Positions 194 to 60,233 of a stretch of 60,346 nt of DNA are shown here, one piece after another. Source of the stretch: a virus (lineage: Duplodnaviria; Heunggongvirae; Uroviricota; Caudoviricetes); the IMG/VR virus record IMGVR_UViG_3300045988_141393; one strand, written 5' to 3'. The translations under genes were made by a program, and so were the position numbers. Position 1 is the stretch's first letter. Every line of letters starts with the position of its first letter. A model generated the notes under the pieces. That model searched no databases. It saw nothing but the letters and a program-made list of their open reading frames with translations, and was not told where the DNA came from.

Positions 194-520
194 ATGTTTG
201 CAGATTATGAAAATCTGGCTGTAGTAGTCATAACATCCCTACTAAGTGGAACCGGCGTATTCCTTCTCGGAGTTAGAGACGGGCGCATTTCTGCGTCCCT
301 GCTCAATCTTGCGAGTGAATTGTTTACTGCGGTAACAGCCGGGCTTGCGGGGTATGGGGTGGCGGTTAGCCAAGAATGGCCTGAAGGTATCATTTTCTGC
401 GTTGTTCTGATTGCCAGTAACAACGGTAGTGAAATTTTACAGGGCTTGAAGTCCAGAGCTAGTAACGTCTTGAATCTCTTAAGCGTAATAGCGAATGGGG
501 GAAAAGGTGGAGAGAAATAA
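194..520 (+). CDS. Small membrane protein, possible holin (LydA-like by size and position)
   Basis: 108 aa, hydrophobic segments; first gene of an operon whose order and sizes resemble the P1 lydA-lydB-darA region; synteny only. Confidence 0.3.
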   Translation: MFADYENLAVVVITSLLSGTGVFLLGVRDGRISASLLNLASELFTAVTAGLAGYGVAVSQEWPEGIIFCVVLIASNNGSEILQGLKSRASNVLNLLSVIANGGKGGEK

Positions 521-1576: not shown

Positions 1577-3506
1577 CAATCCTTTACGAATTAATATTCA
1601 GTCTACTTTTGCTGATACGATCCCCGGCTATGTGCCAAGTCGCTGGTCTTCAGAAGAATTAAGCGAAGATGACCTGATTTTTGAGGCGGCGACCTTAGAA
1701 GATATTGAGCTTGCCTATATGGGCAATGAAATACTGGTTGTGTCTGACGAAGCTATGTTTGAGTCCATAACTACAACCAGAATTCGGTTAGCTCAAACAA
1801 TGCGAGCTTTCGTCCGTGCGCTGAATCGTGGCCTGAATGGTACGAATATTATGGCAGGGACTGATGAAGCCGGGACCGATGAAAATGGACGTAATTGTAT
1901 TGGTGGTGCGATTATCGGTCGTGTGCGTCGGGTAGCTAATATCCCTGTTTTGACCGCGCAGATACCGCTTACTGACGGGCAGAGTACAAGCATAATTTTC
2001 CACTCTCCAACAGCTGACGGGGCAAAAATAAAGAGTAACGACGAGCTTGTTGCATTTCAGTTTTTACTTAATAAGCGTAACGTAACTCACGTTGTCGCCC
2101 CGATTGGTGGGAGAGATGTTTCTTTAAGCCAGGTATGCCAGGCGCTATCTAATTTGATTGAGCGTAACAGCGAAAAATTTAAGAAAGCAAAAGAGCGCCA
2201 GGACAAAATGAAGGCAGATATTGAGAGTTATCTCAATGAAGCAGATAAACTGGCAGAAGAACGGTCAATAATGATTGATCAGGTGGACGTTGCGCAACGT
2301 GGGCTGACTGAAAAGCGTGCTGCTCTTACGGAGATGCAAAAAAAACTTGATGCCCAGAAAGCTATCAATGAGGAGTTACAAGCAAAACGCGATAAATTGT
2401 TGTCTTCTAAAGGAGAAAAAACGAAAGAACGAGCGTTTAGTGACCAGCTGCGACATGTAAAACATAATCTTGCCATTGACGGAAAAACAGTGCTGGATAA
2501 TGGCGCTGAAGTTAATTATGTCACGTCCGGCAGTGACAATTTCGTTACGATAGTAGCACCTGAAGGTAAATTCAGTATTGATGCCAGTGCTGTCAAAGGA
2601 GGCAGTTTGGCAGATGCTGCAACCAAATTACTTAAAGCCTACCGAGAGCATAACGCAGAAAAATATAAAGTTGATTTGTTACCAGGCCAGCTGGAAGACT
2701 CCGAACCACCACAGACGGACCCCGAAACAAACCCAGTATCACAACCAGAGAGCCAAGATGTAGGTAAATACCACTATGCACTTCAATCTCGCCCGGCTGG
2801 TGTTGGTGCTGTTCCGGATGGAAATAAAGCCGTGCTTGATCGTCCTGACCAGGCTGATCAGTATTACGAATATGCTCGTCACGGTATCATTACGTATGAC
2901 CGTAAACTGACAGATGAAGAAGTCAGCCAGTACGAGTTGCTTTATCTTCCTGATGAAGATGAGCTGAAAGATTTTGCAGGCCAATTGGTTGCGTCCAGCA
3001 TGTCGAAACATATTGATGGCTATGTGGACCTGTTTGGCAGTGACCTGAAAACATTCAAGGCGCAAGTGAAAATTCTTTTCCGCAAAGCGTTTCCAAACGT
3101 GGCGTATCCACTTAGTGATGGGGAGAACCTTTTCATTATGGACGTGTATAACGCCCTTCAAAATCATTCAAGCGAAGTAAAAACAGAGAATGTGGTTGAG
3201 CCAGAATCACAACCACAACCACAACCACAACCAGCACCAGAACAGGAGTCGGAGCCAGAAGAAGCGGGTGAATCAGCAAGTGAAGCTGATCAGGAAGCAG
3301 ATAAAGCGCTGGAGTACCTGAAATCCGTGCCGGAGCAGTTTACATCCCGCGATCTGACGGTCATCAGTGCTGAACTTGATCATGTGCAGGAAGCAGCAAA
3401 CGCTCTAATCAGTGCAGGTCGATACGACGAGAACGAAGCCACTGTGGGTGCAGCAGTTGACTACCTGATCAATATTCTGGCTGAAATTCAGCAGGGAGGT
3501 GTTTAA
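1563..3506 (+). CDS. DarA-like internal head/antirestriction protein (putative)
   Basis: About 647 aa from ATG 1563 preceded by GGAGG; coiled-coil centre, in-frame (QP)n linker, acidic C-terminus; size and operon position match P1 DarA; not verified by alignment. Confidence 0.35.
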   Translation: MSMINNPLRINIQSTFADTIPGYVPSRWSSEELSEDDLIFEAATLEDIELAYMGNEILVVSDEAMFESITTTRIRLAQTMRAFVRALNRGLNGTNIMAGTDEAGTDENGRNCIGGAIIGRVRRVANIPVLTAQIPLTDGQSTSIIFHSPTADGAKIKSNDELVAFQFLLNKRNVTHVVAPIGGRDVSLSQVCQALSNLIERNSEKFKKAKERQDKMKADIESYLNEADKLAEERSIMIDQVDVAQRGLTEKRAALTEMQKKLDAQKAINEELQAKRDKLLSSKGEKTKERAFSDQLRHVKHNLAIDGKTVLDNGAEVNYVTSGSDNFVTIVAPEGKFSIDASAVKGGSLADAATKLLKAYREHNAEKYKVDLLPGQLEDSEPPQTDPETNPVSQPESQDVGKYHYALQSRPAGVGAVPDGNKAVLDRPDQADQYYEYARHGIITYDRKLTDEEVSQYELLYLPDEDELKDFAGQLVASSMSKHIDGYVDLFGSDLKTFKAQVKILFRKAFPNVAYPLSDGENLFIMDVYNALQNHSSEVKTENVVEPESQPQPQPQPAPEQESEPEEAGESASEADQEADKALEYLKSVPEQFTSRDLTVISAELDHVQEAANALISAGRYDENEATVGAAVDYLINILAEIQQGGV

Positions 3507-3874
3507 TGACCATCTCTGTTTTAGACCGCCTGAAATTAGGTAAAGAGCTATCAGATCTAATGCAGGCGCAGAAAACTGCGCCAGTATTGCAACGCGTCAC
3601 CATTGGTAAGCAGATTGTTGATGTGATGCTGAAATTGGGCCTGGGGACTGCCGCGCAACCGGCAGCGGAACCGCAACAACAGGCTGATCCTGTTGTAGAT
3701 GAAGTCCCTAAGATAGTGACTGACTTCCTGGGCGGTGTGTTCACAAAGTCCACACAAATGGAATTTATTGATGCGCTGCGTGGGATCTCAAACTATGTTG
3801 GCGAGTTCCTTACGTTGGAGCAGGCTAAAGAGCAGACCATAAGCTGGGTGAAAGCTAACGGTTATGCCGGGTAA
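3506..3874 (+). CDS. Small protein, DdrA-like position
   Basis: 122 aa, ATGA-type overlap with upstream stop; followed by hairpin. Confidence 0.3.
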   Translation: MTISVLDRLKLGKELSDLMQAQKTAPVLQRVTIGKQIVDVMLKLGLGTAAQPAAEPQQQADPVVDEVPKIVTDFLGGVFTKSTQMEFIDALRGISNYVGEFLTLEQAKEQTISWVKANGYAG

Positions 3875-8113: not shown

Positions 8114-8226
8114 CCGCCTTGTTAAGTTAAATTTCTAACATAGTGTATTTATATACACTGTTGATCCTGGTGGATGGGATCGAGTAGGATCGCGGTCACT
8201 GCTCCGGTAGCGACTGCCAAAAAAGC

Positions 8227-8253
8227 AAAAGCCGCTGAGAAGCGGCTTTTTGG
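8227..8253 (+). terminator. Rho-independent terminator
   Basis: AAGCCGCT-gaga-AGCGGCTT followed by TTTT. Confidence 0.5.
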
Positions 8254-9360: not shown

Positions 9361-9559
9361 CGGAATGTATGATCTGCATCATCGACTGAAGTCATCCATT
9401 GCTGAAATTTTTAGTTGATCTTCCATGTTTTCAGGCTTATATTCATGCCGTCGTAGCAAATTCTGCGACCAGGTTTGACAGCCTGAATGTTAGTGCGGAC
9501 AACCGCAGATTTCCGATATTGCGGTATTTTTGTGTCCGTAAACCGCGTTACGCCCGAAT

Positions 9560-9689
9560 TATGGTGGGGCGTGATGGGGAGGCTTCGGCCTGCTGGTTTC
9601 ACTAACGCCAGTCTGTCAACCCTGTCACGTCCTGCCACCTGTTTGACAGCGGGTAGCAGGTTGTTAAACCTGTTAGTGAGGCCGTAACT
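9560..9689 (+). ncRNA. Candidate c4-like antisense RNA / structured leader of Icd-Ant module 1
   Basis: Non-coding stretch directly upstream of icd-like ORF with hairpin CAGGTT-gtta-AACCTG, palindrome CTGTTTGACAG and complementary segments CACTAAC / GTTAGTG on the same strand. Confidence 0.3.
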
Positions 9690-22755: not shown

Positions 22756-22832
22756 GATGGTGTAGCTCAGTAGGATAGAGCAGCAGCCTTCTAAGCTGTC
22801 GGTCGGTGGTTCGAATCCACCCACCATCGCCA
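22756..22832 (+). tRNA. tRNA-Arg (anticodon UCU)
   Basis: Manual cloverleaf: acceptor GATGGTG/CACCATC, D GCTC/GAGC, anticodon loop CUUCUAA, T-loop TTCGAAT, 3' CCA encoded. Confidence 0.8.
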
Positions 22833-22837
22833 ATTTA

Positions 22838-22924
22838 GGGGAGTTAGTCCGTAGGGGTAGCGGGGTAGACTGTAAATCTACTGTCATTGCGACTCGGGTG
22901 GTTCGACTCCATCACTCCCCACCA
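22838..22924 (+). tRNA. tRNA-Tyr (anticodon GUA), long variable arm
   Basis: Acceptor GGGGAGT/ACTCCCC, anticodon stem GTAGA/TCTAC with loop CTGTAAA, T-loop TTCGACT, CCA encoded. Confidence 0.7.
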
Positions 22925-22928
22925 AATT

Positions 22929-23004
22929 GCCGGTTTAGCTCAGTTGGTAGAGCGCCTGCCTTGTAAGCAGGATGTCAGCGGTTCGAGTCCGTTAACCGGC
23001 ACCA
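22929..23004 (+). tRNA. tRNA-Thr (anticodon UGU)
   Basis: Acceptor GCCGGTT/AACCGGC, anticodon stem CCTGC/GCAGG loop CTTGTAA, T-loop TTCGAGT, CCA encoded. Confidence 0.8.
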
Positions 23005-24955: not shown

Positions 24956-25031
24956 GGCCCTTTAGCTCAGTGGTTAGAGCTGGCGACTCATAATCGCACG
25001 GTCACCGGTTCAAGTCCGGTAGGGGCCACCA
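24956..25031 (+). tRNA. tRNA with CAU anticodon (Ile2 lysidine-type or elongator Met)
   Basis: Acceptor GGCCCTT/AGGGGCC, anticodon loop CTCATAA, T-loop TTCAAGT, CCA encoded; resembles enterobacterial ileX-type tRNA. Confidence 0.7.
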
Positions 25032-26453: not shown

Positions 26454-26561
26454 CGTTAGGTATTTAATATTAATTATCTAATATAATCATCTTTTTACCA
26501 GTCTATACAGTTTTAACATTCTCATTATCATCCCCTCGGTCATTTCCTGCCCGGGGGATTA

Positions 26562-26954
26562 ATGGAACAAATCAGCAGCGCAGAAATTGCGGATATCATG
26601 ATCAGGGCTGACTGCTATCTGACAGTCACTGAAATTACCACTCTCGCCAAAGAAAAATACCCTCATCTCCATGTTTCACGAGTAAGTGTAACTAACATCA
26701 TTCGTCATTTTGTTCGTTCAAGCAGGGCAATCTGTGAGCTGGATGATCGTGTGTATCCACGAAAATACTGGCTACATGGTCTGAACGGATATCAGTTCAA
26801 GGTGCGCGGGCGCACGCCTGAATACGGTAGCTTACTGGTTAAAAACTGTAGCAGGAAATCAGTCGAACAGGCGCGAAAAGAGCAACGAGAGCTGGTGGAC
26901 ATGGCGAATAAGCTGTGGAATGCCGCCGTTAAAAAGCGTGGTGTTGCTTTATGA
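26562..26954 (+). CDS. Hypothetical protein (Lpa-like position upstream of terminase genes)
   Basis: 130 aa; position equivalent to the P1 late activator gene; synteny only. Confidence 0.3.
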   Translation: MEQISSAEIADIMIRADCYLTVTEITTLAKEKYPHLHVSRVSVTNIIRHFVRSSRAICELDDRVYPRKYWLHGLNGYQFKVRGRTPEYGSLLVKNCSRKSVEQARKEQRELVDMANKLWNAAVKKRGVAL

Positions 26955-28315
26955 GTCTGGTTAATTGGGAGGAGCACCGCGCCCGCTTTATAGCGTTGCG
27001 TGAAGAAAAAGGGATCACTGTAAAGGAATACTGTGAGGAGCATGGCCTTAGCTTCAATACAGCCAGAAAGCATCTCAATATGAAAAAAAATGAGGTGCGG
27101 TCGCAGGTAAAGACAACAAAAAAAAGCACCAAATCACCTGAAAAAAAACGGGCGGGAAGAGCAACAAAAAAGCTGGAAGAGGGTGCAGAAAAAACAAAAT
27201 TTACAGAAATTGACAATTCGCAGGGCGCAGGTTCTTTCCGAAGTATGCCGAGAAAGAAAACTTCGGATCATGAAAATAATGCAAATAATAACAATGAGAT
27301 AAAAGAATCTGTCAGGAGATCATTGCGCGAAAAAATGGCGAAAATGATCCCCGAAGAAGATAAAAGCGCCCCAAAAATTGAGGGATCTTCAGCAATGATC
27401 CCTGGCGGTGCTGTGCAACGTGCCACATTGCCCACTACGAATGTGGCTCGCGACATGATGAAGAACGGCGCAGAAGAACACCTGCGGTTAGCAATTCAAA
27501 TGGCGCAAGAGCGCGCACTTCAGTATCAAAGCATTGTTGATCAGGAGGCCGAACGTCTACAGGCGGAAATAGACGCCTTGGGCGATAAAGAGCCAGAAGG
27601 AATGCACCCTGGGCAGCGCCTTCTCGGTCTAATCAGTGACGCGGCCTACTACATGAATGATTTTATCAGTAGGTTGGCAGCTATATATCAGTCCGAACAA
27701 AAGCTGCGACAGGGGGATGAAAAGCTTCGTCAGAGCGCTCGCCAGCAAGCATTCAAAGAGGCTGAGGCCAGAGAAAAACTCGAATTAGCACGCCTACAGG
27801 CCGAACAGCGTGGCAAAGAGATTGAATATCGCATTGGCGCTGACGCACGCGCTGCCAGAGTTATCGCCGCCGCTATACGTATGCGTGAGCGCGAGGAACT
27901 GGATGATATCGGTGTTGCTGAATACATCGAGCGCCAGGGGGTCAGCGTCCCGGCTATCCTCGCGGCGCGCGCGGCGAAAGCTATCACTCTTCTCGAACCA
28001 CCTGTTTCTGACGTCAATGATGTTGATGATGAACAGCTGGACAAAGAGGCAAGGGAGTTTGCAACGCTTCAGGCTAACCATCCGCAATGGCTGGCAGAGC
28101 GCCGGGCGGATGTGGCAACCATTGTTGAAGAATTGGGGTGCGGAGATTACGACCGCAATGGCGAGCGTAAAGCTGGAGAATTCGAGGCCAACGACGAAGA
28201 GCTGGATATTGACCCTTCGGCAACGGCTGAAATTTACGGTGATTATGATGCATCTGATGCAGGGTATGACGCCGGAGATGATGATATCGCGATAGAACCG
28301 CCGGAGGATGATTAA
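26951..28315 (+). CDS. Terminase small subunit-like protein (PacA-like)
   Basis: 454 aa; N-terminal HTH-like region, very acidic C-terminus, immediately upstream of ATPase-bearing terminase; contains GATC cluster. Confidence 0.4.
   Translation: MSLVNWEEHRARFIALREEKGITVKEYCEEHGLSFNTARKHLNMKKNEVRSQVKTTKKSTKSPEKKRAGRATKKLEEGAEKTKFTEIDNSQGAGSFRSMPRKKTSDHENNANNNNEIKESVRRSLREKMAKMIPEEDKSAPKIEGSSAMIPGGAVQRATLPTTNVARDMMKNGAEEHLRLAIQMAQERALQYQSIVDQEAERLQAEIDALGDKEPEGMHPGQRLLGLISDAAYYMNDFISRLAAIYQSEQKLRQGDEKLRQSARQQAFKEAEAREKLELARLQAEQRGKEIEYRIGADARAARVIAAAIRMREREELDDIGVAEYIERQGVSVPAILAARAAKAITLLEPPVSDVNDVDDEQLDKEAREFATLQANHPQWLAERRADVATIVEELGCGDYDRNGERKAGEFEANDEELDIDPSATAEIYGDYDASDAGYDAGDDDIAIEPPEDD
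27266..27544. repeat. GATC-rich cluster, candidate pac site
   Basis: Six GATC in about 280 bp (27266, 27318, 27346, 27384, 27397, 27539), several as TGATCC/TGATCA, inside the PacA-like gene. Confidence 0.35.
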
Positions 28316-29823
28316 TGGCTGGCGGGCGCAAGATTAAATGCGTCACCAGCGATCCACGCTGGCGCGATATGGTAATCAAATACCGCTACAACTTTACCCA
28401 GGCTGTTGTCGATATTTTTGGGATGTTCCCCTCCCACCAGCAGCAGCAGATCATTCAGTCAGTGCAGGAAACGGGGAGTAGGACGACCGTCACGTCCGGA
28501 CACGGAACGGGGAAGTCGTCCCTTACCGCGATGTTGCTGTTGATTTTTATGATCCTGTTCCCCGATGCCCGTGTCATCATTGTTGCTAACAAGATAGGCC
28601 AGGTAAAAACAGGCGTATTCAAATACGTTAAACAGTATTGGGCGAATGCAGTTAAGCGTCATGGGTGGTTGCAGACCTATTTTGTCCTCTCTGACACCAT
28701 GTTTTATGAGCGCTCCCGTAAGGGGATTTGGGAAGTTCTCTGCAAAGGTTATCGACTCGGCAACGAAGAAGCGCTGGCGGGGGAACACGCGGCACATTTG
28801 CTTCTAATTCTGGACGAAGCATCTGGTATATCTGATAAGGCGATCGGCGTAATGACCGGTGCTCTTACTGAAGAAGATAACCGGATGTTGATGCTATCCC
28901 AGCCAACAAGGCCAAGTGGTTATTTCTACGATTCGCACCATTCTCAAGCAAAAACCCCAGACAACCCGAAAGGGATCTGGACAGCAATTGTTCTTAACTC
29001 GGAAGAATCACCGTTCGTCACACCACAATTCATCAAGCAGAAGCTTCTGGAATATGGCGGGCGCGATTCTATTGAGTACATGGTCAAGGTGCTTGGTCAG
29101 TTCCCACGAGAAATTAACGGCTATTTGCTTGGTCGTGATGAATGCGATCGCGCTGCTCGCCGCAAGGTGTTGTTGGAGAAAAACTGGGGATGGGTGGCAA
29201 CGGCTGACGTTGGTAATGGGCGAGATAAGTCGGTCCTCAACATCTGCAAAGTATCTGGTCACAGGGATAAGCGGCGCGTTGTTAACTTTAAGGTAATGGA
29301 GATGCCTGGCACTATGGACCCATTGGCCTTTGCTGACTTCATATATAACGAATGTACGCCGGAAAAATACCCGAATATAACAATCGCGGTTGATGCTGAT
29401 GGTTTTGGTTCTGATACGTGTGCGCAGTTGGTGCGTCGTGGTGCGAACCCGGTACGTATTCGGTGGGGAAAACCCATGTTTGCGAACAAAGACAGGGAGC
29501 GATTTGTTAATCAGCGTGCCTACGCAAATATTATGGCGCGAGATGCCATAAAGTCAGGGCGTATGCGGATAGACAGTGACCCTAAAACGGCAGAGCAAGC
29601 GTCAAAAATCCCCTTTTTACTGAATGAAGAAGGGAAAATGGCGATGATGCGCAAAGAGCACATGCGGCAAAAGCTAAACATCAAATCGCCTGACCGATGG
29701 GATACCTACTGCTTCACTATGCTGGTGGACTATGTGCCTGCTAATGAAGATATTGGTGCCGAAATGGCAACTTTCCGAGATCAGGTTCTGGCGGATATCG
29801 AAATGCCGGATCTGGATATATAA
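28315..29823 (+). CDS. Terminase large subunit (PacB-like ATPase-nuclease)
   Basis: 502 aa; Walker A SGHGTGKSS, Walker B HLLLILDEASG, C-terminal acidic AVDADG nuclease-like motif. Confidence 0.55.
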   Translation: MAGGRKIKCVTSDPRWRDMVIKYRYNFTQAVVDIFGMFPSHQQQQIIQSVQETGSRTTVTSGHGTGKSSLTAMLLLIFMILFPDARVIIVANKIGQVKTGVFKYVKQYWANAVKRHGWLQTYFVLSDTMFYERSRKGIWEVLCKGYRLGNEEALAGEHAAHLLLILDEASGISDKAIGVMTGALTEEDNRMLMLSQPTRPSGYFYDSHHSQAKTPDNPKGIWTAIVLNSEESPFVTPQFIKQKLLEYGGRDSIEYMVKVLGQFPREINGYLLGRDECDRAARRKVLLEKNWGWVATADVGNGRDKSVLNICKVSGHRDKRRVVNFKVMEMPGTMDPLAFADFIYNECTPEKYPNITIAVDADGFGSDTCAQLVRRGANPVRIRWGKPMFANKDRERFVNQRAYANIMARDAIKSGRMRIDSDPKTAEQASKIPFLLNEEGKMAMMRKEHMRQKLNIKSPDRWDTYCFTMLVDYVPANEDIGAEMATFRDQVLADIEMPDLDI

Positions 29824-29824
29824 A

Positions 29825-29841
29825 GCCCCGCGATGCGGGGC
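29825..29841. terminator. Hairpin between convergent genes
   Basis: GCCCCGC-gat-GCGGGGC. Confidence 0.35.
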
Positions 29842-29850
29842 CGGTTGTGA

Positions 29851-30888
29851 TTACCAGAGCTTCGCGGCGTACTGCGTTTGGGGGAATGTGTATCCGTAAC
29901 GTTCTTCGATTGCTTTGCCGTATTTTTTACGAGCTTCATTCAGTTTAATGCCGGTCAGGTCGTCTCCAGAGGCCATCATTACGTCTAACAATTCCAGATC
30001 CATTTTATCCAGCCTTGCCATTGCTTCACGTGATGTACGTATCTTACGTTCAATGATATGGCGAATAGCCGGATCGGCATCCTCCAGCATCTTAGCGGAT
30101 TTCTGCTTAAGGCTTTCATTGCGAATATCGATGTTCCTTAAGATGTACGACTTCGCAACGTAGCTTGGCTGGTGTTTTTCCAGGTCACGAACACGATATA
30201 AGTTAAAATCGCCGAGAAGGCTGCAAGGTACCGATTCGACGCCAGAATAAATTGTAATGCTCCGGCGTTCACCAACATTATTGACAACGGGGATCGTTGT
30301 CTTCGGTAGTCTTGCGAAAACCAATGCGCCATGTGCGCCAACTCTAAAGCGAGAAAGGGCATTGCTGCCTTCGATGTTTGTTGTCAGCACAACATCTGTA
30401 TATGCCTCTTTACGCGCCCGGTAGATCTCGCCTTCAGGCTCAGCTTCAAAGAAGCGCTGTTCTTCTTCAAGAGCACCTACGATTTGAGAAAAAACCCTAT
30501 TTTTCAGGCTTTTCTTTATGATTTTGTCGTATTTTTTTAGCAATTGTTCACGTGTAAATGTACGTGTTGTTGTAGCGCTTTGCACAACGACATGCGTGCT
30601 TTGATTGGTGTCCTCAATGATGAATGGGATCGGAGAATATACAGACTCAACAATGTTCGACGCTTTGCCGTCGGCATCGCGGCACATGTCAACGAAGGCT
30701 TTCCATTCAGCAAGACATTTTTCAGCTTCTTCTAATATGTTTTGGTCATGCGTTAATGCAACATGGCGGAATTCCTCGCCAGCATAACTGGTATCATGGA
30801 AAACAGAGTTTGCGACCACCAGCTCTTTCCACCGTTCAGCGGTTTGCAGGAACCGTTTGTACTCTTTCTCGATCGACTTCTTACTCAT
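29851..30888 (-). CDS. Hypothetical protein in the immunity-repressor (C1) position
   Basis: 345 aa, AGGA RBS; lies between terminase genes and lox-Cre as c1 does in P1; recurrent operator-like motif 20 bp upstream of its start; identity not verified. Confidence 0.3.
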   Translation of the reverse strand: MSKKSIEKEYKRFLQTAERWKELVVANSVFHDTSYAGEEFRHVALTHDQNILEEAEKCLAEWKAFVDMCRDADGKASNIVESVYSPIPFIIEDTNQSTHVVVQSATTTRTFTREQLLKKYDKIIKKSLKNRVFSQIVGALEEEQRFFEAEPEGEIYRARKEAYTDVVLTTNIEGSNALSRFRVGAHGALVFARLPKTTIPVVNNVGERRSITIYSGVESVPCSLLGDFNLYRVRDLEKHQPSYVAKSYILRNIDIRNESLKQKSAKMLEDADPAIRHIIERKIRTSREAMARLDKMDLELLDVMMASGDDLTGIKLNEARKKYGKAIEERYGYTFPQTQYAAKLW

Positions 30889-31097: not shown

Positions 31098-31131
31098 ATA
31101 ACTTTAAATAATTGGCATTATTTAAAGTTAA
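31098..31131. other. lox-like site (13-bp inverted repeats flanking 8-bp spacer)
   Basis: ATAACTTTAAATA-ATTGGCAT-TATTTAAAGTTAA; arms match 12/13; shares ATAACTT...ATA with loxP arms; 150 bp upstream of cre-like gene. Confidence 0.55.
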
Positions 31132-46984: not shown

Positions 46985-47087
46985 AATACTGACTGTTGCG
47001 CCCTGGCATTATCGTGGGGTATATTTCTACGGCACCTTAGAAAAACGGGTGCCGGGATTGGAACCCCGGATAATGCAAAAGGCGACA

Positions 47088-47111
47088 CAGACGCCGAAAG
47101 CGTCTTTTTTT
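47088..47111 (+). terminator. Rho-independent terminator
   Basis: GACGC-cgaaa-GCGTC followed by TTTTTTT. Confidence 0.55.
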
Positions 47112-47149
47112 GTGTCATGCCATCGCACAGCCATACGTAGCGTTTAGCT

Positions 47150-47296
47150 CAGAGATCAATGGTAGTGCTGGCTGGGCTGCCGAAAGGCAGGCCGGTTCCC
47201 TTTTGCGCCGGTAGTTCCAACCCAGTCAGTGCTACCGCCATTGAGATTGGAACCTCACGCGGTAGCTCCTTAAATTAGCAAAAGGAGGCTGCCATT
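47150..47296 (+). ncRNA. Candidate c4-like antisense RNA / structured leader of Icd-Ant module 2
   Basis: Interleaved complementary segments GTTCCAA / TTGGAAC and GCTACCGC / GCGGTAGC upstream of the icd-like start. Confidence 0.3.
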
Positions 47297-58687: not shown

Positions 58688-59335
58688 GTGAGTCTTTGTG
58701 ATTTCACGGGGAAAATGGTCGCCCCCTGGCTGGAGCATGGTATAGATGCTGTTATCGTCGATCCACAACACGCAAAGACCACAGATGAGCTGATGCAATC
58801 AGGCGCAGTTCTGACACGTATCAGTGCGATTATCGATAGTGATGAAGTTTATGCTTTTCTCCGAAATAATTTACAACGTATTGTGTTTTTAGCTGGTTTT
58901 CCGCCGTGCACGGACCTTGCTGTTTCCGGTGCGCGCTGGTTTGCACATAAGGCTGACAAAGATCCGGTTTTCCAGTTCAAAGCGATGCAAGTCGTCTGGC
59001 AGTGTTACGACATTGCAAAGATGATTGGTTGCCCGTACATGATTGAAAACCCGGTCAGCCAAATATCGACATTCTGGCGTAAACCTGATCACATCTTCCA
59101 TCCTTACCACTTCACTGCATATTGCAAGGAAGACAATTACACCAAAAAAACATGCCTCTGGAGCGGGCAGGGCTTTGTCATGCCTGATGCCCTAATGGAC
59201 GAATCATTAGGCAAGCCAGATAACAGAATCCATACCGCGCCACCTGGGCCTGAAAGGGCTAATTTTCGAAGTGCTACTCCGAATGGATTCGCAAAAGCAG
59301 TTTTCGAAGCAAATAAGGGGGTGCTCTATGAGTAA
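58688..59335 (+). CDS. Divergent C5-cytosine methyltransferase-like protein
   Basis: About 215 aa from GTG 58688; motif IV-like GFPPCTDLAVSGA and motif VI-like MIENP; too short for a canonical C5-MTase; start uncertain. Confidence 0.35.
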   Translation: MSLCDFTGKMVAPWLEHGIDAVIVDPQHAKTTDELMQSGAVLTRISAIIDSDEVYAFLRNNLQRIVFLAGFPPCTDLAVSGARWFAHKADKDPVFQFKAMQVVWQCYDIAKMIGCPYMIENPVSQISTFWRKPDHIFHPYHFTAYCKEDNYTKKTCLWSGQGFVMPDALMDESLGKPDNRIHTAPPGPERANFRSATPNGFAKAVFEANKGVLYE

Positions 59336-60233
59336 ATCTCTAGTAAGCACAGCCATAGAAAGACATGATTCGATGGCGGAAATTAGCTATATGCGCACCA
59401 TTCGGACTCCGGATGAATACGAGCGTCCGATCTTCAAATGGGTAGGCGGTAAATTTTCAGAGTTGCCTATAGTGCTTGAGCATCTACCACACGGTAAGCG
59501 GTTAATAGAACCATTCGTTGGTGGCGGTTCCGTATTTACGAATGCAGGATTTCGCCACAACCTGCTTAATGATATTAACGGTGACTTGATTAACTTCTAT
59601 CAGACATTGCAGCGAGAAAGACATTCTCTAGTCACGCTGTCATATAGTTTTTTCCAAAATTACAACAACGCTGACGCTTACCTCGAAGTGCGTGAGGCAT
59701 TTAACAGAGGAAAGTATGACCAACTACATCATGCTGCTGCCTTTTTGTACCTTAATCGGCACTGTTTTAATGGCGTAACACGGTACAACCAAAATGGCGA
59801 GTTCAACGTAGGGTATGGTAAATACAAAGCGCCCTACTTCCCACATGCAGAGATGGAGGCATTTTTGGCTGATGACGTACTCAAAAACACTTCCTTTGTA
59901 TCAGGTGACTTTGCTGGCGTCATCGAGGCGGCTGGTGAAGGCGATGTGATTTTTTGCGATCCGCCGTATGAACCGCTGCCGGATACAGAAGGGTTTACCA
60001 GTTATTCAGGAAATAGCTTCCGTTTCGACGAACAGAAACGGCTGGTATCTCTATTGGTGGAAGCCCACCAGCGCGGCGCTAAGGTAGTGATTACAAATAG
60101 TGGTGCTCCAAACATCCGTGAACTATATGAAGGAAACGGGTTTAAAGTACATCATATGGCAGCCAGACGGTCGGTTTCCTGCAAGGCGTCAACACGTGTA
60201 GTTGCTAACGATATAATTGCAATAATGAAGTAA
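59328..60233 (+). CDS. dam: N6-adenine DNA methyltransferase (Dam family)
   Basis: 301 aa from ATG 59328; KWVGGKF ... EPFVGGGSV and catalytic DPPY (FCDPPYEP). Confidence 0.75.
   Translation: MSKSLVSTAIERHDSMAEISYMRTIRTPDEYERPIFKWVGGKFSELPIVLEHLPHGKRLIEPFVGGGSVFTNAGFRHNLLNDINGDLINFYQTLQRERHSLVTLSYSFFQNYNNADAYLEVREAFNRGKYDQLHHAAAFLYLNRHCFNGVTRYNQNGEFNVGYGKYKAPYFPHAEMEAFLADDVLKNTSFVSGDFAGVIEAAGEGDVIFCDPPYEPLPDTEGFTSYSGNSFRFDEQKRLVSLLVEAHQRGAKVVITNSGAPNIRELYEGNGFKVHHMAARRSVSCKASTRVVANDIIAIMK

What the first reader, a model, noticed from the sequence alone, without database searches (positions are those of the whole stretch)
27266..27544. GATC-dense stretch inside the PacA-like gene, candidate methylation-controlled pac site
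Six GATC tetramers fall within about 280 bp, several as TGATCC or TGATCA. About one is expected by chance at this GC content. P1 pac lies inside pacA, consists of repeated TGATC(A/G) hexamers and is cut only when Dam-methylated. This element encodes its own Dam-family methyltransferase (59328..60233).
Basis: partly seen in the sequence, partly recalled or inferred. Interest (0 to 1): 0.5.

Follow-up and report, generated by a model that had tools for sequence, protein, structure and literature searches.

The report
Likely packaging site of phage D6
Inside the small-terminase gene (pacA) of a D6-type phage-plasmid sits a strictly conserved array of five GATC-containing motifs, most likely the DNA signal where genome packaging starts; it is a differently built relative of the well-known phage P1 pac site rather than something new in kind.

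Summary
The window is a D6-like phage-plasmid, 99.5% identical to Escherichia phage D6 across this region, and the sites lie in pacA (26951-28315).

Density alone proves nothing. This is the densest GATC cluster in the window and in the whole D6 genome, yet equally tight clusters arise in 24-53% of randomised sequences.

The real evidence is comparative:
- In 30 distinct D6-clade pacA genes, down to 67% nucleotide identity, the first five sites are GATC in 29-30 of 30. They lie in the least conserved part of the protein.
- Synonymous positions inside GATC are fixed, while those just outside vary.
- The sixth site (27539) is lost by a synonymous change in the diverged lineages, so it is not part of the element.
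- The unit is a roughly 9-11 bp motif, AATGATCCC, in both orientations.
- Ten PacA lineages, P1 included, carry GATC arrays in the same part of the gene.

D6 differs from P1 in three ways: its flanks are TGATCC rather than TGATCA/G, it lacks the left-hand array, and it has no conserved IHF site. The Dam-family methylase is confirmed.

Verdict: a probable pac recognition element, a new variant of a known kind. Cleavage and methylation dependence remain untested.

The parts
26951..28315 (+). pacA, the small (recognition) subunit of the pacase/terminase (454 aa); the candidate pac element lies inside it
   Evidence: ORF. It is 99.3-100% identical to the annotated D6 pacA. It is homologous to P1 PacA: 25% identity in the alignment and tblastn E about 5e-9 over residues 4-433. 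The gene order lpa-pacA-pacB-c1-rox-dre matches P1.
27264..27402 (.). Core conserved GATC-motif array: five copies, 139 bp, pacA nt 314-452; the candidate pac recognition element
   Evidence: GATC is present in 30/29/29/30/30 of 30 distinct D6-clade sequences with 67-100% nt identity. The array lies in the least conserved part of PacA, aa 61-150, which is 20-50% identical against 75-100% elsewhere. Only 9.3% of other tetramers in this region are invariant.
27264..27272 (-). Motif copy 1 (CATGATCCG on the - strand; GATC 27266-27269; codons GAT CAT, Asp-His)
   Evidence: CGGATCA is invariant in six lineages. GAT is fixed while the His third position varies. This site is absent in the E. hormaechei-type relative L009.
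27316..27324 (-). Motif copy 2 (AATGATCTC on the - strand; GATC 27318-27321; codons AGA TCA)
   Evidence: GATCATT is invariant. The amino acid switches Arg to Gly (AGA/GGA) while the 'GA' is kept. In the 70-75% relatives it is a perfect AATGATCCC. It forms an inverted pair with copy 3 (I5).
27343..27351 (+). Motif copy 3 (AATGATCCC; GATC 27346-27349; codons ATG ATC CCC)
   Evidence: AAATGATCCC is invariant in all seven lineages including L009. The Ile codon is always ATC while the Pro third position varies.
27382..27390 (-). Motif copy 4 (GAAGATCCC on the - strand; GATC 27384-27387; codons GGA TCT)
   Evidence: GATC in 30/30 sequences. The amino acid switches between Gly and Arg with 'GA' kept, and the Ser third position varies. 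It is a perfect AATGATCCC in E. marmotae-type relatives, paired with copy 5 across a 3-nt spacer.
27394..27402 (+). Motif copy 5 (AATGATCCC; GATC 27397-27400; codons ATG ATC CCT)
   Evidence: AATGATCCC is invariant in all seven lineages. It is a direct repeat of copy 3 at 51-bp spacing (D6).
27011..27019 (-). Possible distal sixth motif copy (AGTGATCCC on the - strand; GATC 27013-27016), 245 bp upstream of the array; status uncertain
   Evidence: One mismatch to the motif. GATC is present in 30/30 D6-clade sequences, with the Gly (GGG) and Ile (ATC) codons fixed while the next Thr codon varies. It lies in the protein-conserved HTH domain and is absent in L009, so protein constraint cannot be separated from DNA constraint.
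27539..27542 (.).
   Evidence: Present in only 21 of 30 sequences. In the 70-75% lineages it is lost by the synonymous change GAT to GAC although the peptide V-D-Q-E is kept.
27524..27536 (+). Perfect IHF consensus match (TATCAAAGCATTG) next to the sixth GATC; probably incidental
   Evidence: One of 6 matches in the window against 3.3 expected. It is not conserved in the 70-75% lineages or in L009.
28315..29823 (+). pacB, the large terminase subunit (ATPase/nuclease) expected to cut at or near the element
   Evidence: ORF. Annotated pacB in D6. Weak Terminase_6N match.
31099..31130 (+). rox recombination site, 3.7 kb downstream of the array (P1 has lox about 4 kb from pac)
   Evidence: Exact match to the rox pattern, annotated in AY753669.
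59328..60233 (+). Dam-family N6-adenine DNA methyltransferase carried by the element
   Evidence: PF02086 at E = 2.5e-56. TIGR00571 'dam' at 248 bits against a cut-off of 115. The best solved relatives are E. coli Dam and DpnM, both GATC enzymes. D6 orf63 is annotated as similar to P1 dmt.

Best explanation
The 139-bp stretch at 27264-27402 is the recognition part of the D6-type packaging site (pac). It is embedded in the linker-coding part of pacA.

It consists of five copies of a roughly 9-11-bp motif, consensus (A)AATGATCCC(T), each with a Dam target GATC at its core. Copies 1, 2 and 4 point leftward and copies 3 and 5 rightward, so 2/3 and 4/5 form inverted pairs.

Proposed mechanism, by homology with P1:
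1. PacA binds the motifs through its N-terminal helix-turn-helix domain.
2. PacB then cuts nearby.
3. Headful packaging proceeds rightward through pacB and c1 to rox, which places rox in the terminal redundancy.
4. The invariant GATC cores let Dam methylation, from the host or from the element's own Dam, license cutting.

Shown here: the array exists, it is under DNA-level purifying selection, it sits where P1-family pac arrays sit, and a Dam-family enzyme is encoded. Inferred only: PacA binding, the cleavage position, the packaging direction and the methylation dependence.
For: Identity and context:
- The window is 99.5% identical to phage D6 across 26500-30000, with P1-like gene order lpa-pacA-pacB-c1-rox-dre.

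Conservation within the D6 clade:
- All five GATCs keep their exact position in pacA genes 67-75% identical at the nucleotide level. They are present in 29-30 of 30 distinct sequences.
- They sit in the most variable part of the protein.
- In that region only 9.3% of other tetramers are invariant, against 5 of 5 GATCs. Several of the longest invariant runs there are CGGATCA, GATCATT, AAATGATCCC and AATGATCCC.

Evidence that the constraint is on the DNA, not the protein:
- Third-codon positions inside GATC are invariant in 7 of 7 cases, against 36 of 110 outside (Fisher p = 6.5e-4).
- The GATCs use all three reading frames.
- At copies 2 and 4 the amino acid changes between Arg and Gly but 'GA' stays.
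- The E. hormaechei-type relative has an extra AATGATCCG copy in a different frame, read as N-D-P rather than M-I-P.
- As an internal control, the sixth GATC lies in a conserved peptide (VDQE) and is nonetheless lost by a synonymous change.

Family-wide pattern:
- Ten PacA lineages all carry GATC arrays at gene nt about 140-480: P1, P. alvi, Pantoea, Serratia, Citrobacter, Leclercia, E. kobei, L054, E. hormaechei-type and D6.
- Pooled GATC density there is 5.1 times that of the rest of the gene.
- In P1 this is the experimentally defined pac, with arrays at gene nt 195-229 and 325-348 and cleavage at 276-285. It needs the hexamers and their Dam methylation (PMC10028697).

Methylase:
- A Dam-family methylase is encoded in the window.
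Against: - No direct evidence of cutting or packaging initiation exists here. Neither D6 GenBank record annotates a pac site.
- The density itself is within chance for a sequence this long.
- The architecture departs from P1. There is no left-hand array: gene nt 140-310 contain no GATC and no motif-like copy, and the only other copy is at nt 61. No roughly 95-bp central gap marks a cleavage zone. No IHF consensus is conserved. In P1 both arms are needed (from memory: Sternberg & Coulby 1987).
- Two natural variants each lack one site through a T-to-C change, so single sites are dispensable, or those copies are defective or sequencing errors.
- Because each GATC also encodes conserved residues (D-H, x-S, M-I-P), some contribution of protein constraint cannot be fully excluded.
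Confidence: 0.68

Rival explanations
1. The array is a functional GATC/PacA-binding element that is not the packaging start. It could be a Dam/SeqA- or PacA-dependent regulatory site that times or autoregulates pacA-pacB expression. Alternatively it could be the surviving right arm of an ancestral two-armed pac, with cutting in D6 now specified elsewhere.
For: The left arm found in all other lineages is missing in the D6 clade. No conserved IHF site or central gap is present. DNA-level conservation shows function but does not say which function.
Against: No sigma-70 promoter-like site lies in 26900-27700 on either strand. The same gene segment holds the experimentally proven pac in P1. No other comparable GATC or motif array exists in the D6 genome at 135-280 bp scales. 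AATGATCC occurs only once elsewhere in the window.
Confidence: 0.17
2. The conservation reflects short peptide motifs in PacA (Asp-His, Gly/Arg-Ser, Met-Ile-Pro twice) rather than a DNA signal. On this view the GATCs are a by-product of codon choice.
For: Every conserved GATC overlaps residues that are themselves conserved in the D6 clade (D-H, S, M-I-P).
Against: Synonymous positions within GATC are fixed in 7 of 7 cases, against 36 of 110 nearby. Arg/Gly replacements keep 'GA'. The three reading frames give the same DNA motif. An out-of-frame extra copy occurs in L009. The motif occurs in both orientations as perfect 10-11-nt inverted repeats in relatives. Distant lineages with unrelated linker peptides still carry GATC arrays.
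Confidence: 0.05
3. The cluster is a chance local excess of GATC with no function.
For: Scan statistics: equally tight clusters occur in 24-53% of randomised sequences of this length.
Against: The sites are retained in position at 67-75% nucleotide identity in a hypervariable segment. The cluster sits in pacA, where P = 0.006 if the gene is specified in advance. Arrays recur family-wide.
Confidence: 0.02
4. The conserved islands are imposed by an overlapping antisense gene, the 62-aa ORF at 27268-27456 on the - strand.
For: A 62-aa ORF spans exactly the cluster on the - strand.
Against: In the 70-75% relatives it has no ATG start, and in three of the four it has an internal stop codon. Conservation is confined to the GATC motifs rather than spread along the ORF.
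Confidence: 0.01

Closest known systems
Bacteriophage P1 pac site (161-162 bp inside pacA; HEX4 and HEX3 arrays of TGATCA/G, central IHF site and cleavage zone; cleavage requires Dam methylation)
   Same: - It lies inside the homologous gene, in the variable linker-coding part after the N-terminal HTH domain.
- It is built from repeated short motifs with a GATC core.
- D6 copies 1-2 align with the P1 right arm and the GATC just after it.
- Gene order is the same, and a site-specific recombination site (rox in D6, lox in P1) lies about 4 kb downstream.
- The element encodes its own Dam-family methylase.
   Different: - The motif flanks are TGATCC, extended to AATGATCCC and therefore oriented, rather than the mostly palindromic TGATCA/G.
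- The copies are spread over 139 bp at 13-52-bp spacing, not packed at about 7-15 bp.
- There is no left arm, no obvious central cleavage gap and no conserved IHF consensus.
- PacA is only about 22-25% identical. It is divergent enough that a published survey scored pacA as absent from the P1-g2 subgroup (PMC7969092); I take that subgroup to be the D6-like one, which the passage read does not state.
GATC arrays in pacA of other P1-family phage-plasmids (Pantoea, Serratia, Citrobacter, Leclercia, Enterobacter kobei; uncharacterised)
   Same: GATC arrays occur in the same gene segment, pacA nt about 140-480.
   Different: Those lineages are two-armed with TGATCA-type motifs, often at a strict 12-bp period. 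Pantoea, for example, has seven copies at nt 154-237 plus two at 363-379. D6 has the TGATCCC-type motif and one arm.
pacA arrays of the two nearest outgroups with the D6-type motif (Enterobacter hormaechei plasmid p60214CZ_1, locus L009, 56% aa identity; IMG/VR locus L054, 34%)
   Same: They use the same (A)ATGATCCC(C) motif in both orientations. L009 shares D6 copies 2, 3 and 5 in register.
   Different: Both keep a left arm. L009 has three GATCs at nt 157-181, 12 bp apart, and L054 has five at nt 142-226. They therefore bridge the P1-like two-armed layout and the D6 one-armed layout.
pac sites inside small-terminase genes of other headful phages (P22, SPP1, Sf6; from general knowledge)
   Same: The recognition site is embedded in the small-terminase gene, and packaging proceeds by the headful mechanism.
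   Different: As far as I know, those sites are not built from GATC repeats and have not been reported to be methylation-controlled. I did not test this here.

Membership tests
P1-type pac site | Located within the pacA (small pacase subunit) gene of a P1-family phage-plasmid | tested here: met
   The array lies at pacA nt 314-452. pacA identity comes. P1 pac occupies pacA nt about 190-352.
P1-type pac site | Multiple repeated hexamers TGATC(A/G), each containing a Dam site | tested here: inconclusive
   The GATC core is present in five conserved copies. The flanks differ: the consensus is (A)ATGATCC(C). On either strand the window copies read TGATCC three times, TGATCT once and AGATCC once. 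None of the five conserved copies is TGATCA/G.
P1-type pac site | Two-armed layout (4 + 3 hexamers) flanking a central cleavage region of about 95 bp | tested here: not met
   No GATC and no motif-like copy lies between pacA nt 70 and 313. The five copies form a single array with gaps of 52, 28, 38 and 13 bp. A lone possible copy at nt 61 is 245 bp away.
P1-type pac site | IHF binding site next to the cleavage point | tested here: not met
   No IHF consensus match with one mismatch or fewer is conserved in position across D6-clade lineages. The perfect match at 27524-27536 is confined to the close D6 group. The consensus is weak, so an atypical site is not excluded.
P1-type pac site | Cleavage by PacA + PacB at the site, starting a headful packaging series | not testable with these tools
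   This needs virion DNA end mapping or in vitro cleavage. The only hint is one pair of isolate-genome contigs that end and start at window-equivalent 27279 and 27270.
P1-type pac site | Cleavage depends on Dam methylation of the GATC cores | not testable with these tools
   Only indirect evidence is available. The GATC cores are more conserved than the flanks at copies 1, 2 and 4, and a Dam-family methylase is encoded.
Dam-family (D12 class) GATC adenine methyltransferase (ORF 59328-60233) | Match to the family profile above the curated cut-off | tested here: met
   TIGR00571 scores 248.3 bits against a cut-off of 114.85. PF02086 scores 191.7 bits against a cut-off of 22.
Dam-family (D12 class) GATC adenine methyltransferase (ORF 59328-60233) | GATC sequence specificity | not testable with these tools
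   The closest solved relatives are E. coli Dam, DpnM and T4 Dam, all GATC enzymes from general knowledge. The score is below the E. coli Dam equivalog cut-off, 239 against 441 bits, so specificity is inferred.

The most novel reading that the evidence does not exclude
D6-type pacases have evolved a packaging signal of different design from P1. It is a one-armed array of an oriented 11-bp motif (AAATGATCCCT) arranged as inverted pairs, recognised by a PacA whose recognition helix has co-varied: NTAR-K in the three TGATCC-type lineages against NT[A/V/C]R-R (mostly NTAR-R) in the seven TGATCA-type lineages. The GATC core is kept as a Dam-methylation licence. This would make D6 and P1 packaging mutually orthogonal. 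It would also show that the methylation switch, not the site architecture, is the conserved essence of this terminase family.
Probability: 0.4. Interest if true: 0.45.

Novelty: new variant of a known kind. Interest (0 to 1): 0.35.

Why it matters
P1 pac is the textbook case of a packaging site switched by DNA methylation, and it underlies P1 phagemids and transduction tools. D6-like phage-plasmids are common in E. coli, Salmonella and Shigella: 121 plasmid records match this pacA. Neither D6 GenBank record annotates a pac site, and one survey could not recognise pacA in the P1-g2 subgroup at all.

A defined candidate site of 139 bp and five motifs makes several things directly testable:
- D6 packaging initiation.
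- D6-based phagemid design.
- Cross-packaging, or its absence, between co-resident P1 and D6 elements.
- Transduction risk for the resistance plasmids that co-occur with D6-like prophages.

The family comparison also gives a natural series for asking which features of a methylation-gated pac site are essential. The series runs from two-armed TGATCA arrays, through two-armed TGATCCC arrays, to one-armed TGATCCC arrays.

It is not a new principle. A specialist would expect D6 to have some P1-like pac.

Tried and rejected
- **Density as evidence.** Window-wide and genome-wide scan statistics show the cluster is not significant on density alone.
- **Sixth GATC (27539) and the adjacent perfect IHF consensus (27524-27536).** Neither is conserved in the 70-75% lineages, so both are excluded from the element.
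- **Antisense 62-aa ORF (27268-27456).** In the 70-75% relatives it has no ATG start, and in three of the four an internal stop codon; rejected.
- **Promoter within the array.** No sigma-70-like sites on either strand.
- **A-rich tract at about 27100-27215 as a conserved bend or IHF region.** Its sequence is not conserved in the 75% lineages (alignment); not pursued.
- **Degenerate left-arm motif copies lacking GATC.** None found with two mismatches or fewer between pacA nt 70 and 313.
- **Literature.** The D6 genome paper (Gilcrease & Casjens 2018, PMC5800970) and the P1 genome paper (PMC523184) are not held in the library. I therefore could not check whether D6 pac was discussed there. Full-text searches found no paper linking D6, pac and GATC.
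- **Genome-contig scan.** It returned only three P1-like loci. The plasmid and IMG/VR collections were far more informative.
- **More contig ends at the array.** Only one contig pair breaks there.
- **Structure prediction of PacA.** Judged peripheral and not run.
Full report
**1. What the window is**

Positions 26500-30000 are 99.5% identical to Escherichia phage D6 (AY753669, MF356679). D6 is a P1-related phage-plasmid.

The finding lies in pacA (26951-28315, +, 454 aa). The neighbouring genes are lpa (26562-26954), pacB (28315-29823) and c1 (29851-30888, -). rox lies at 31099-31130, followed by dre. This is the P1 order lpa-pacA-pacB-c1-lox-cre.

Neither D6 record annotates a pac site, although both annotate rox.

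**2. The observation**

GATC starts at 27266, 27318, 27346, 27384, 27397 and 27539.

The cluster is the densest in the window at 135-300 bp scales. It is also the densest in the complete 91,159-bp D6 genome at 135-280 bp.

Density alone is not evidence:
- A run of 5 sites in 135 bp appears somewhere in 24-26% of random or dinucleotide-shuffled 60-kb sequences.
- A run of 6 sites in 277 bp appears in 44-50% of them.
- For the full D6 genome the figures are 31% and 53%.
- Only with pacA named in advance is the cluster unusual: P = 0.006, or 0.001 for the linker-coding third of the gene.

**3. Conservation is the real signal**

I collected pacA genes from plasmids and from IMG/VR. Thirty distinct D6-clade sequences span 100% down to 67% nucleotide identity over the first 700 nt.

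| Site (gene nt) | Window position | GATC present |
|---|---|---|
| 316 | 27266 | 30/30 |
| 368 | 27318 | 29/30 |
| 396 | 27346 | 29/30 |
| 434 | 27384 | 30/30 |
| 447 | 27397 | 30/30 |
| 589 | 27539 | 21/30 |

The five conserved sites lie in the least conserved part of the protein. Residues 61-150 are 20-50% identical between lineages, against 75-100% elsewhere. In gene nt 131-480, only 9.3% of tetramers that do not touch a GATC are invariant across six lineages, yet all five GATCs are. Several of the longest invariant runs there are CGGATCA, GATCATT, AAATGATCCC and AATGATCCC.

**4. The constraint is on the DNA, not the peptide**

- Third-codon positions inside the GATCs are invariant in 7 of 7 cases, against 36 of 110 outside them (Fisher p = 6.5e-4).
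- The GATCs sit in all three reading frames: GAT-C, xGA-TCx and xxG-ATC.
- At copies 2 and 4 the residue flips between Arg (AGA) and Gly (GGA) while 'GA' is kept. The synonymous positions just outside GATC (His, Pro, Ser third bases) vary freely.
- The E. hormaechei-type relative (L009, 56% aa identity) has an extra AATGATCCG copy read as Asn-Asp-Pro instead of Met-Ile-Pro.
- The sixth GATC is a useful internal control. It lies in a conserved peptide (V-D-Q-E), and in the 70-75% lineages it is destroyed by the synonymous change GAT to GAC.
- The antisense 62-aa ORF covering the cluster has no ATG start in the 70-75% relatives, and an internal stop in three of the four.
- No promoter-like sites occur here.

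**5. Anatomy**

When oriented, the five sites are copies of one motif, (A)AATGATCCC(T).

| Copy | Window position | Strand | Sequence |
|---|---|---|---|
| 1 | 27264-27272 | - | CATGATCCG |
| 2 | 27316-27324 | - | AATGATCTC |
| 3 | 27343-27351 | + | AATGATCCC |
| 4 | 27382-27390 | - | GAAGATCCC |
| 5 | 27394-27402 | + | AATGATCCC |

In E. marmotae-type relatives, copies 2-5 are four perfect 10-11-mers. They form two inverted pairs with 16-nt and 3-nt spacers.

A possible sixth copy (AGTGATCCC, - strand) sits at 27011-27019. It is conserved in 30 of 30 sequences, with fixed Gly and Ile codons. Because it lies inside the protein-conserved HTH domain and is absent in L009, its status is open.

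**6. The family picture**

P1 pac is defined experimentally. It is 161-162 bp inside pacA, with seven TGATCA/G hexamers (HEX4 and HEX3), a central IHF site and a cleavage zone, and hexamer Dam methylation is needed for cleavage (PMC10028697; P1 annotation). In P1 the GATCs are at gene nt 195-229 and 325-348 (plus 376), and cutting occurs at 276-285.

Every other PacA lineage I could find has GATC arrays in the same segment:

| Lineage | GATC positions (gene nt) |
|---|---|
| Pantoea | 154-237 (seven, 12-bp period) + 363, 379 |
| Serratia | 199-255 + 338-375 |
| Citrobacter | 175, 187 + 327, 354 |
| Leclercia | 175-192 + 318 |
| E. kobei | 192-234 + 351 |
| P. alvi | 214-247 + 318-366 |
| L054 | 142-226 + 327 |
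| L009 | 157-181 + 380-471 |

L054 positions are counted from the start codon used, which is 42 nt downstream of the ORF start listed.

Pooled over ten lineages, GATC density at nt 140-480 is 5.1 times that of the rest of the gene.

Two motif classes emerge. The TGATCA class covers P1, Pantoea, Serratia, Citrobacter, Leclercia and E. kobei. The TGATCCC class covers D6, L009 and L054.

The D6 clade is the only lineage without a left arm. Its array aligns with the P1 right arm and the roughly 75 bp after it. L009 and L054 have the D6-type motif but keep two arms, so they bridge the two layouts.

**7. Methylase**

ORF 59328-60233 is a Dam-family enzyme. D6 annotates its counterpart as similar to the C-terminal half of P1 Dmt. 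GATC specificity is inferred from its closest relatives, not shown.

**8. Interpretation**

The array is a functional DNA element (confidence about 0.9). It is most likely the PacA recognition part of the D6 pac site (about 0.7). Methylation control is plausible because the GATC cores are the most conserved part, but it is untested (about 0.55).

The cleavage position is unknown. By alignment, the P1 cut zone corresponds to about 27205-27235. That interval has two small conserved islands, AATTTACA at 27198-27205 and TGACAA at 27211-27216.

One anecdote bears on this. Two contigs of an isolate genome end and start at window-equivalent 27279 and 27270, overlapping by 10 nt just after copy 1. This is the only contig break in pacA among 75 IMG/VR loci. 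It could be a physical end or an assembly accident.

**9. Membership and novelty**

The element works like P1 pac but fails two defining features that I tested: the two-armed layout and a conserved IHF site. Its motif flanks also differ. I therefore file it as a new variant of the P1-type, GATC-based pac site, not as a straightforward member.

I could not read the D6 genome paper, so prior description there cannot be excluded. Searches of the held library found nothing.

Interest is modest. The result is expected in kind, useful in practice, and offers a neat comparative series.

Noticed in passing
window-equivalent 27270-27279 (loci L053/L107 end, L042/L118 start): Two contigs of one isolate genome (IMGVR_UViG_2537562191_000026 and _000021) end and begin here with a 10-nt overlap, ATGAAAATAA, immediately after GATC copy 1. 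This is the only contig break inside pacA among 75 IMG/VR loci. It could mark a physical pac end or be an assembly accident.
   Followed up: partly
loci L018, L019, L016, L017, L021, L015, L054, L009 (pacA genes): All PacA lineages carry GATC arrays at pacA nt about 140-480. Pantoea has seven TGATCA copies at a strict 12-bp period. Two motif classes exist: TGATCA, and (A)ATGATCCC in D6, L009 and L054.
   Followed up: yes
PacA residues about 36-46 (window 27056-27088): The putative recognition helix reads NTAR-K-HL in the TGATCCC-class lineages D6 and L009, and STGR-K-KL in L054. In the seven TGATCA-class lineages it reads NT[A/V/C]R-R-x(L/F), mostly NTAR-R. This may be co-variation of protein and motif flank, but the TGATCCC lineages form one clade, so it may be a single event.
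   Followed up: no
window 8163-8191: Three GATCs fall within 29 bp (TGATCCTGGTGGATGGGATCGAGTAGGATCG) in an apparently intergenic stretch. A terminator-like hairpin follows at about 8228-8252. Function unknown.
   Followed up: no
window 3288-3784: Seven GATCs fall within 500 bp, the densest stretch in the window at that scale. I did not examine it further. It probably lies in ddrB/ddrA-like genes if the window is collinear with D6.
   Followed up: no
window 9437-9642 and 47032-47242: Rfam finds two C4 antisense RNA genes, at 9557-9642 and 47155-47242. The c4 target element a1b1 is at 9437-9489 and an isrK-like RNA at 47032-47110. The element therefore seems to carry two immunity (immI-like) regions, each next to icd/anti-repressor genes in D6.
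   Followed up: no
window 22756-23001 and 24956-25028: Four tRNA genes were detected by Rfam. D6 annotates tRNA-Thr, tRNA-Asn and an odd tRNA-Ser with a UGA anticodon in the matching region.
   Followed up: no
loci L022 and L048: Two natural D6-clade variants each lack one array site through a single T-to-C change (GATC to GACC), at copy 2 and copy 3 respectively. Either single copies are dispensable or these are defective or erroneous sequences.
   Followed up: partly
locus L020 (CP060164.1, labelled Acinetobacter venetianus): A Pantoea-type P1-family phage-plasmid is recorded from an Acinetobacter isolate. Its annotated pacA start (862) is about 160 nt downstream of the tblastn match start (701), so the GATC array falls at the very 5' end of the annotated gene. 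This is probably a mis-called start.
   Followed up: no
window 27524-27536: A perfect IHF consensus, TATCAAAGCATTG, abuts the sixth GATC. It is present only in the close D6 group and not in the 70-75% relatives or L009.
   Followed up: yes
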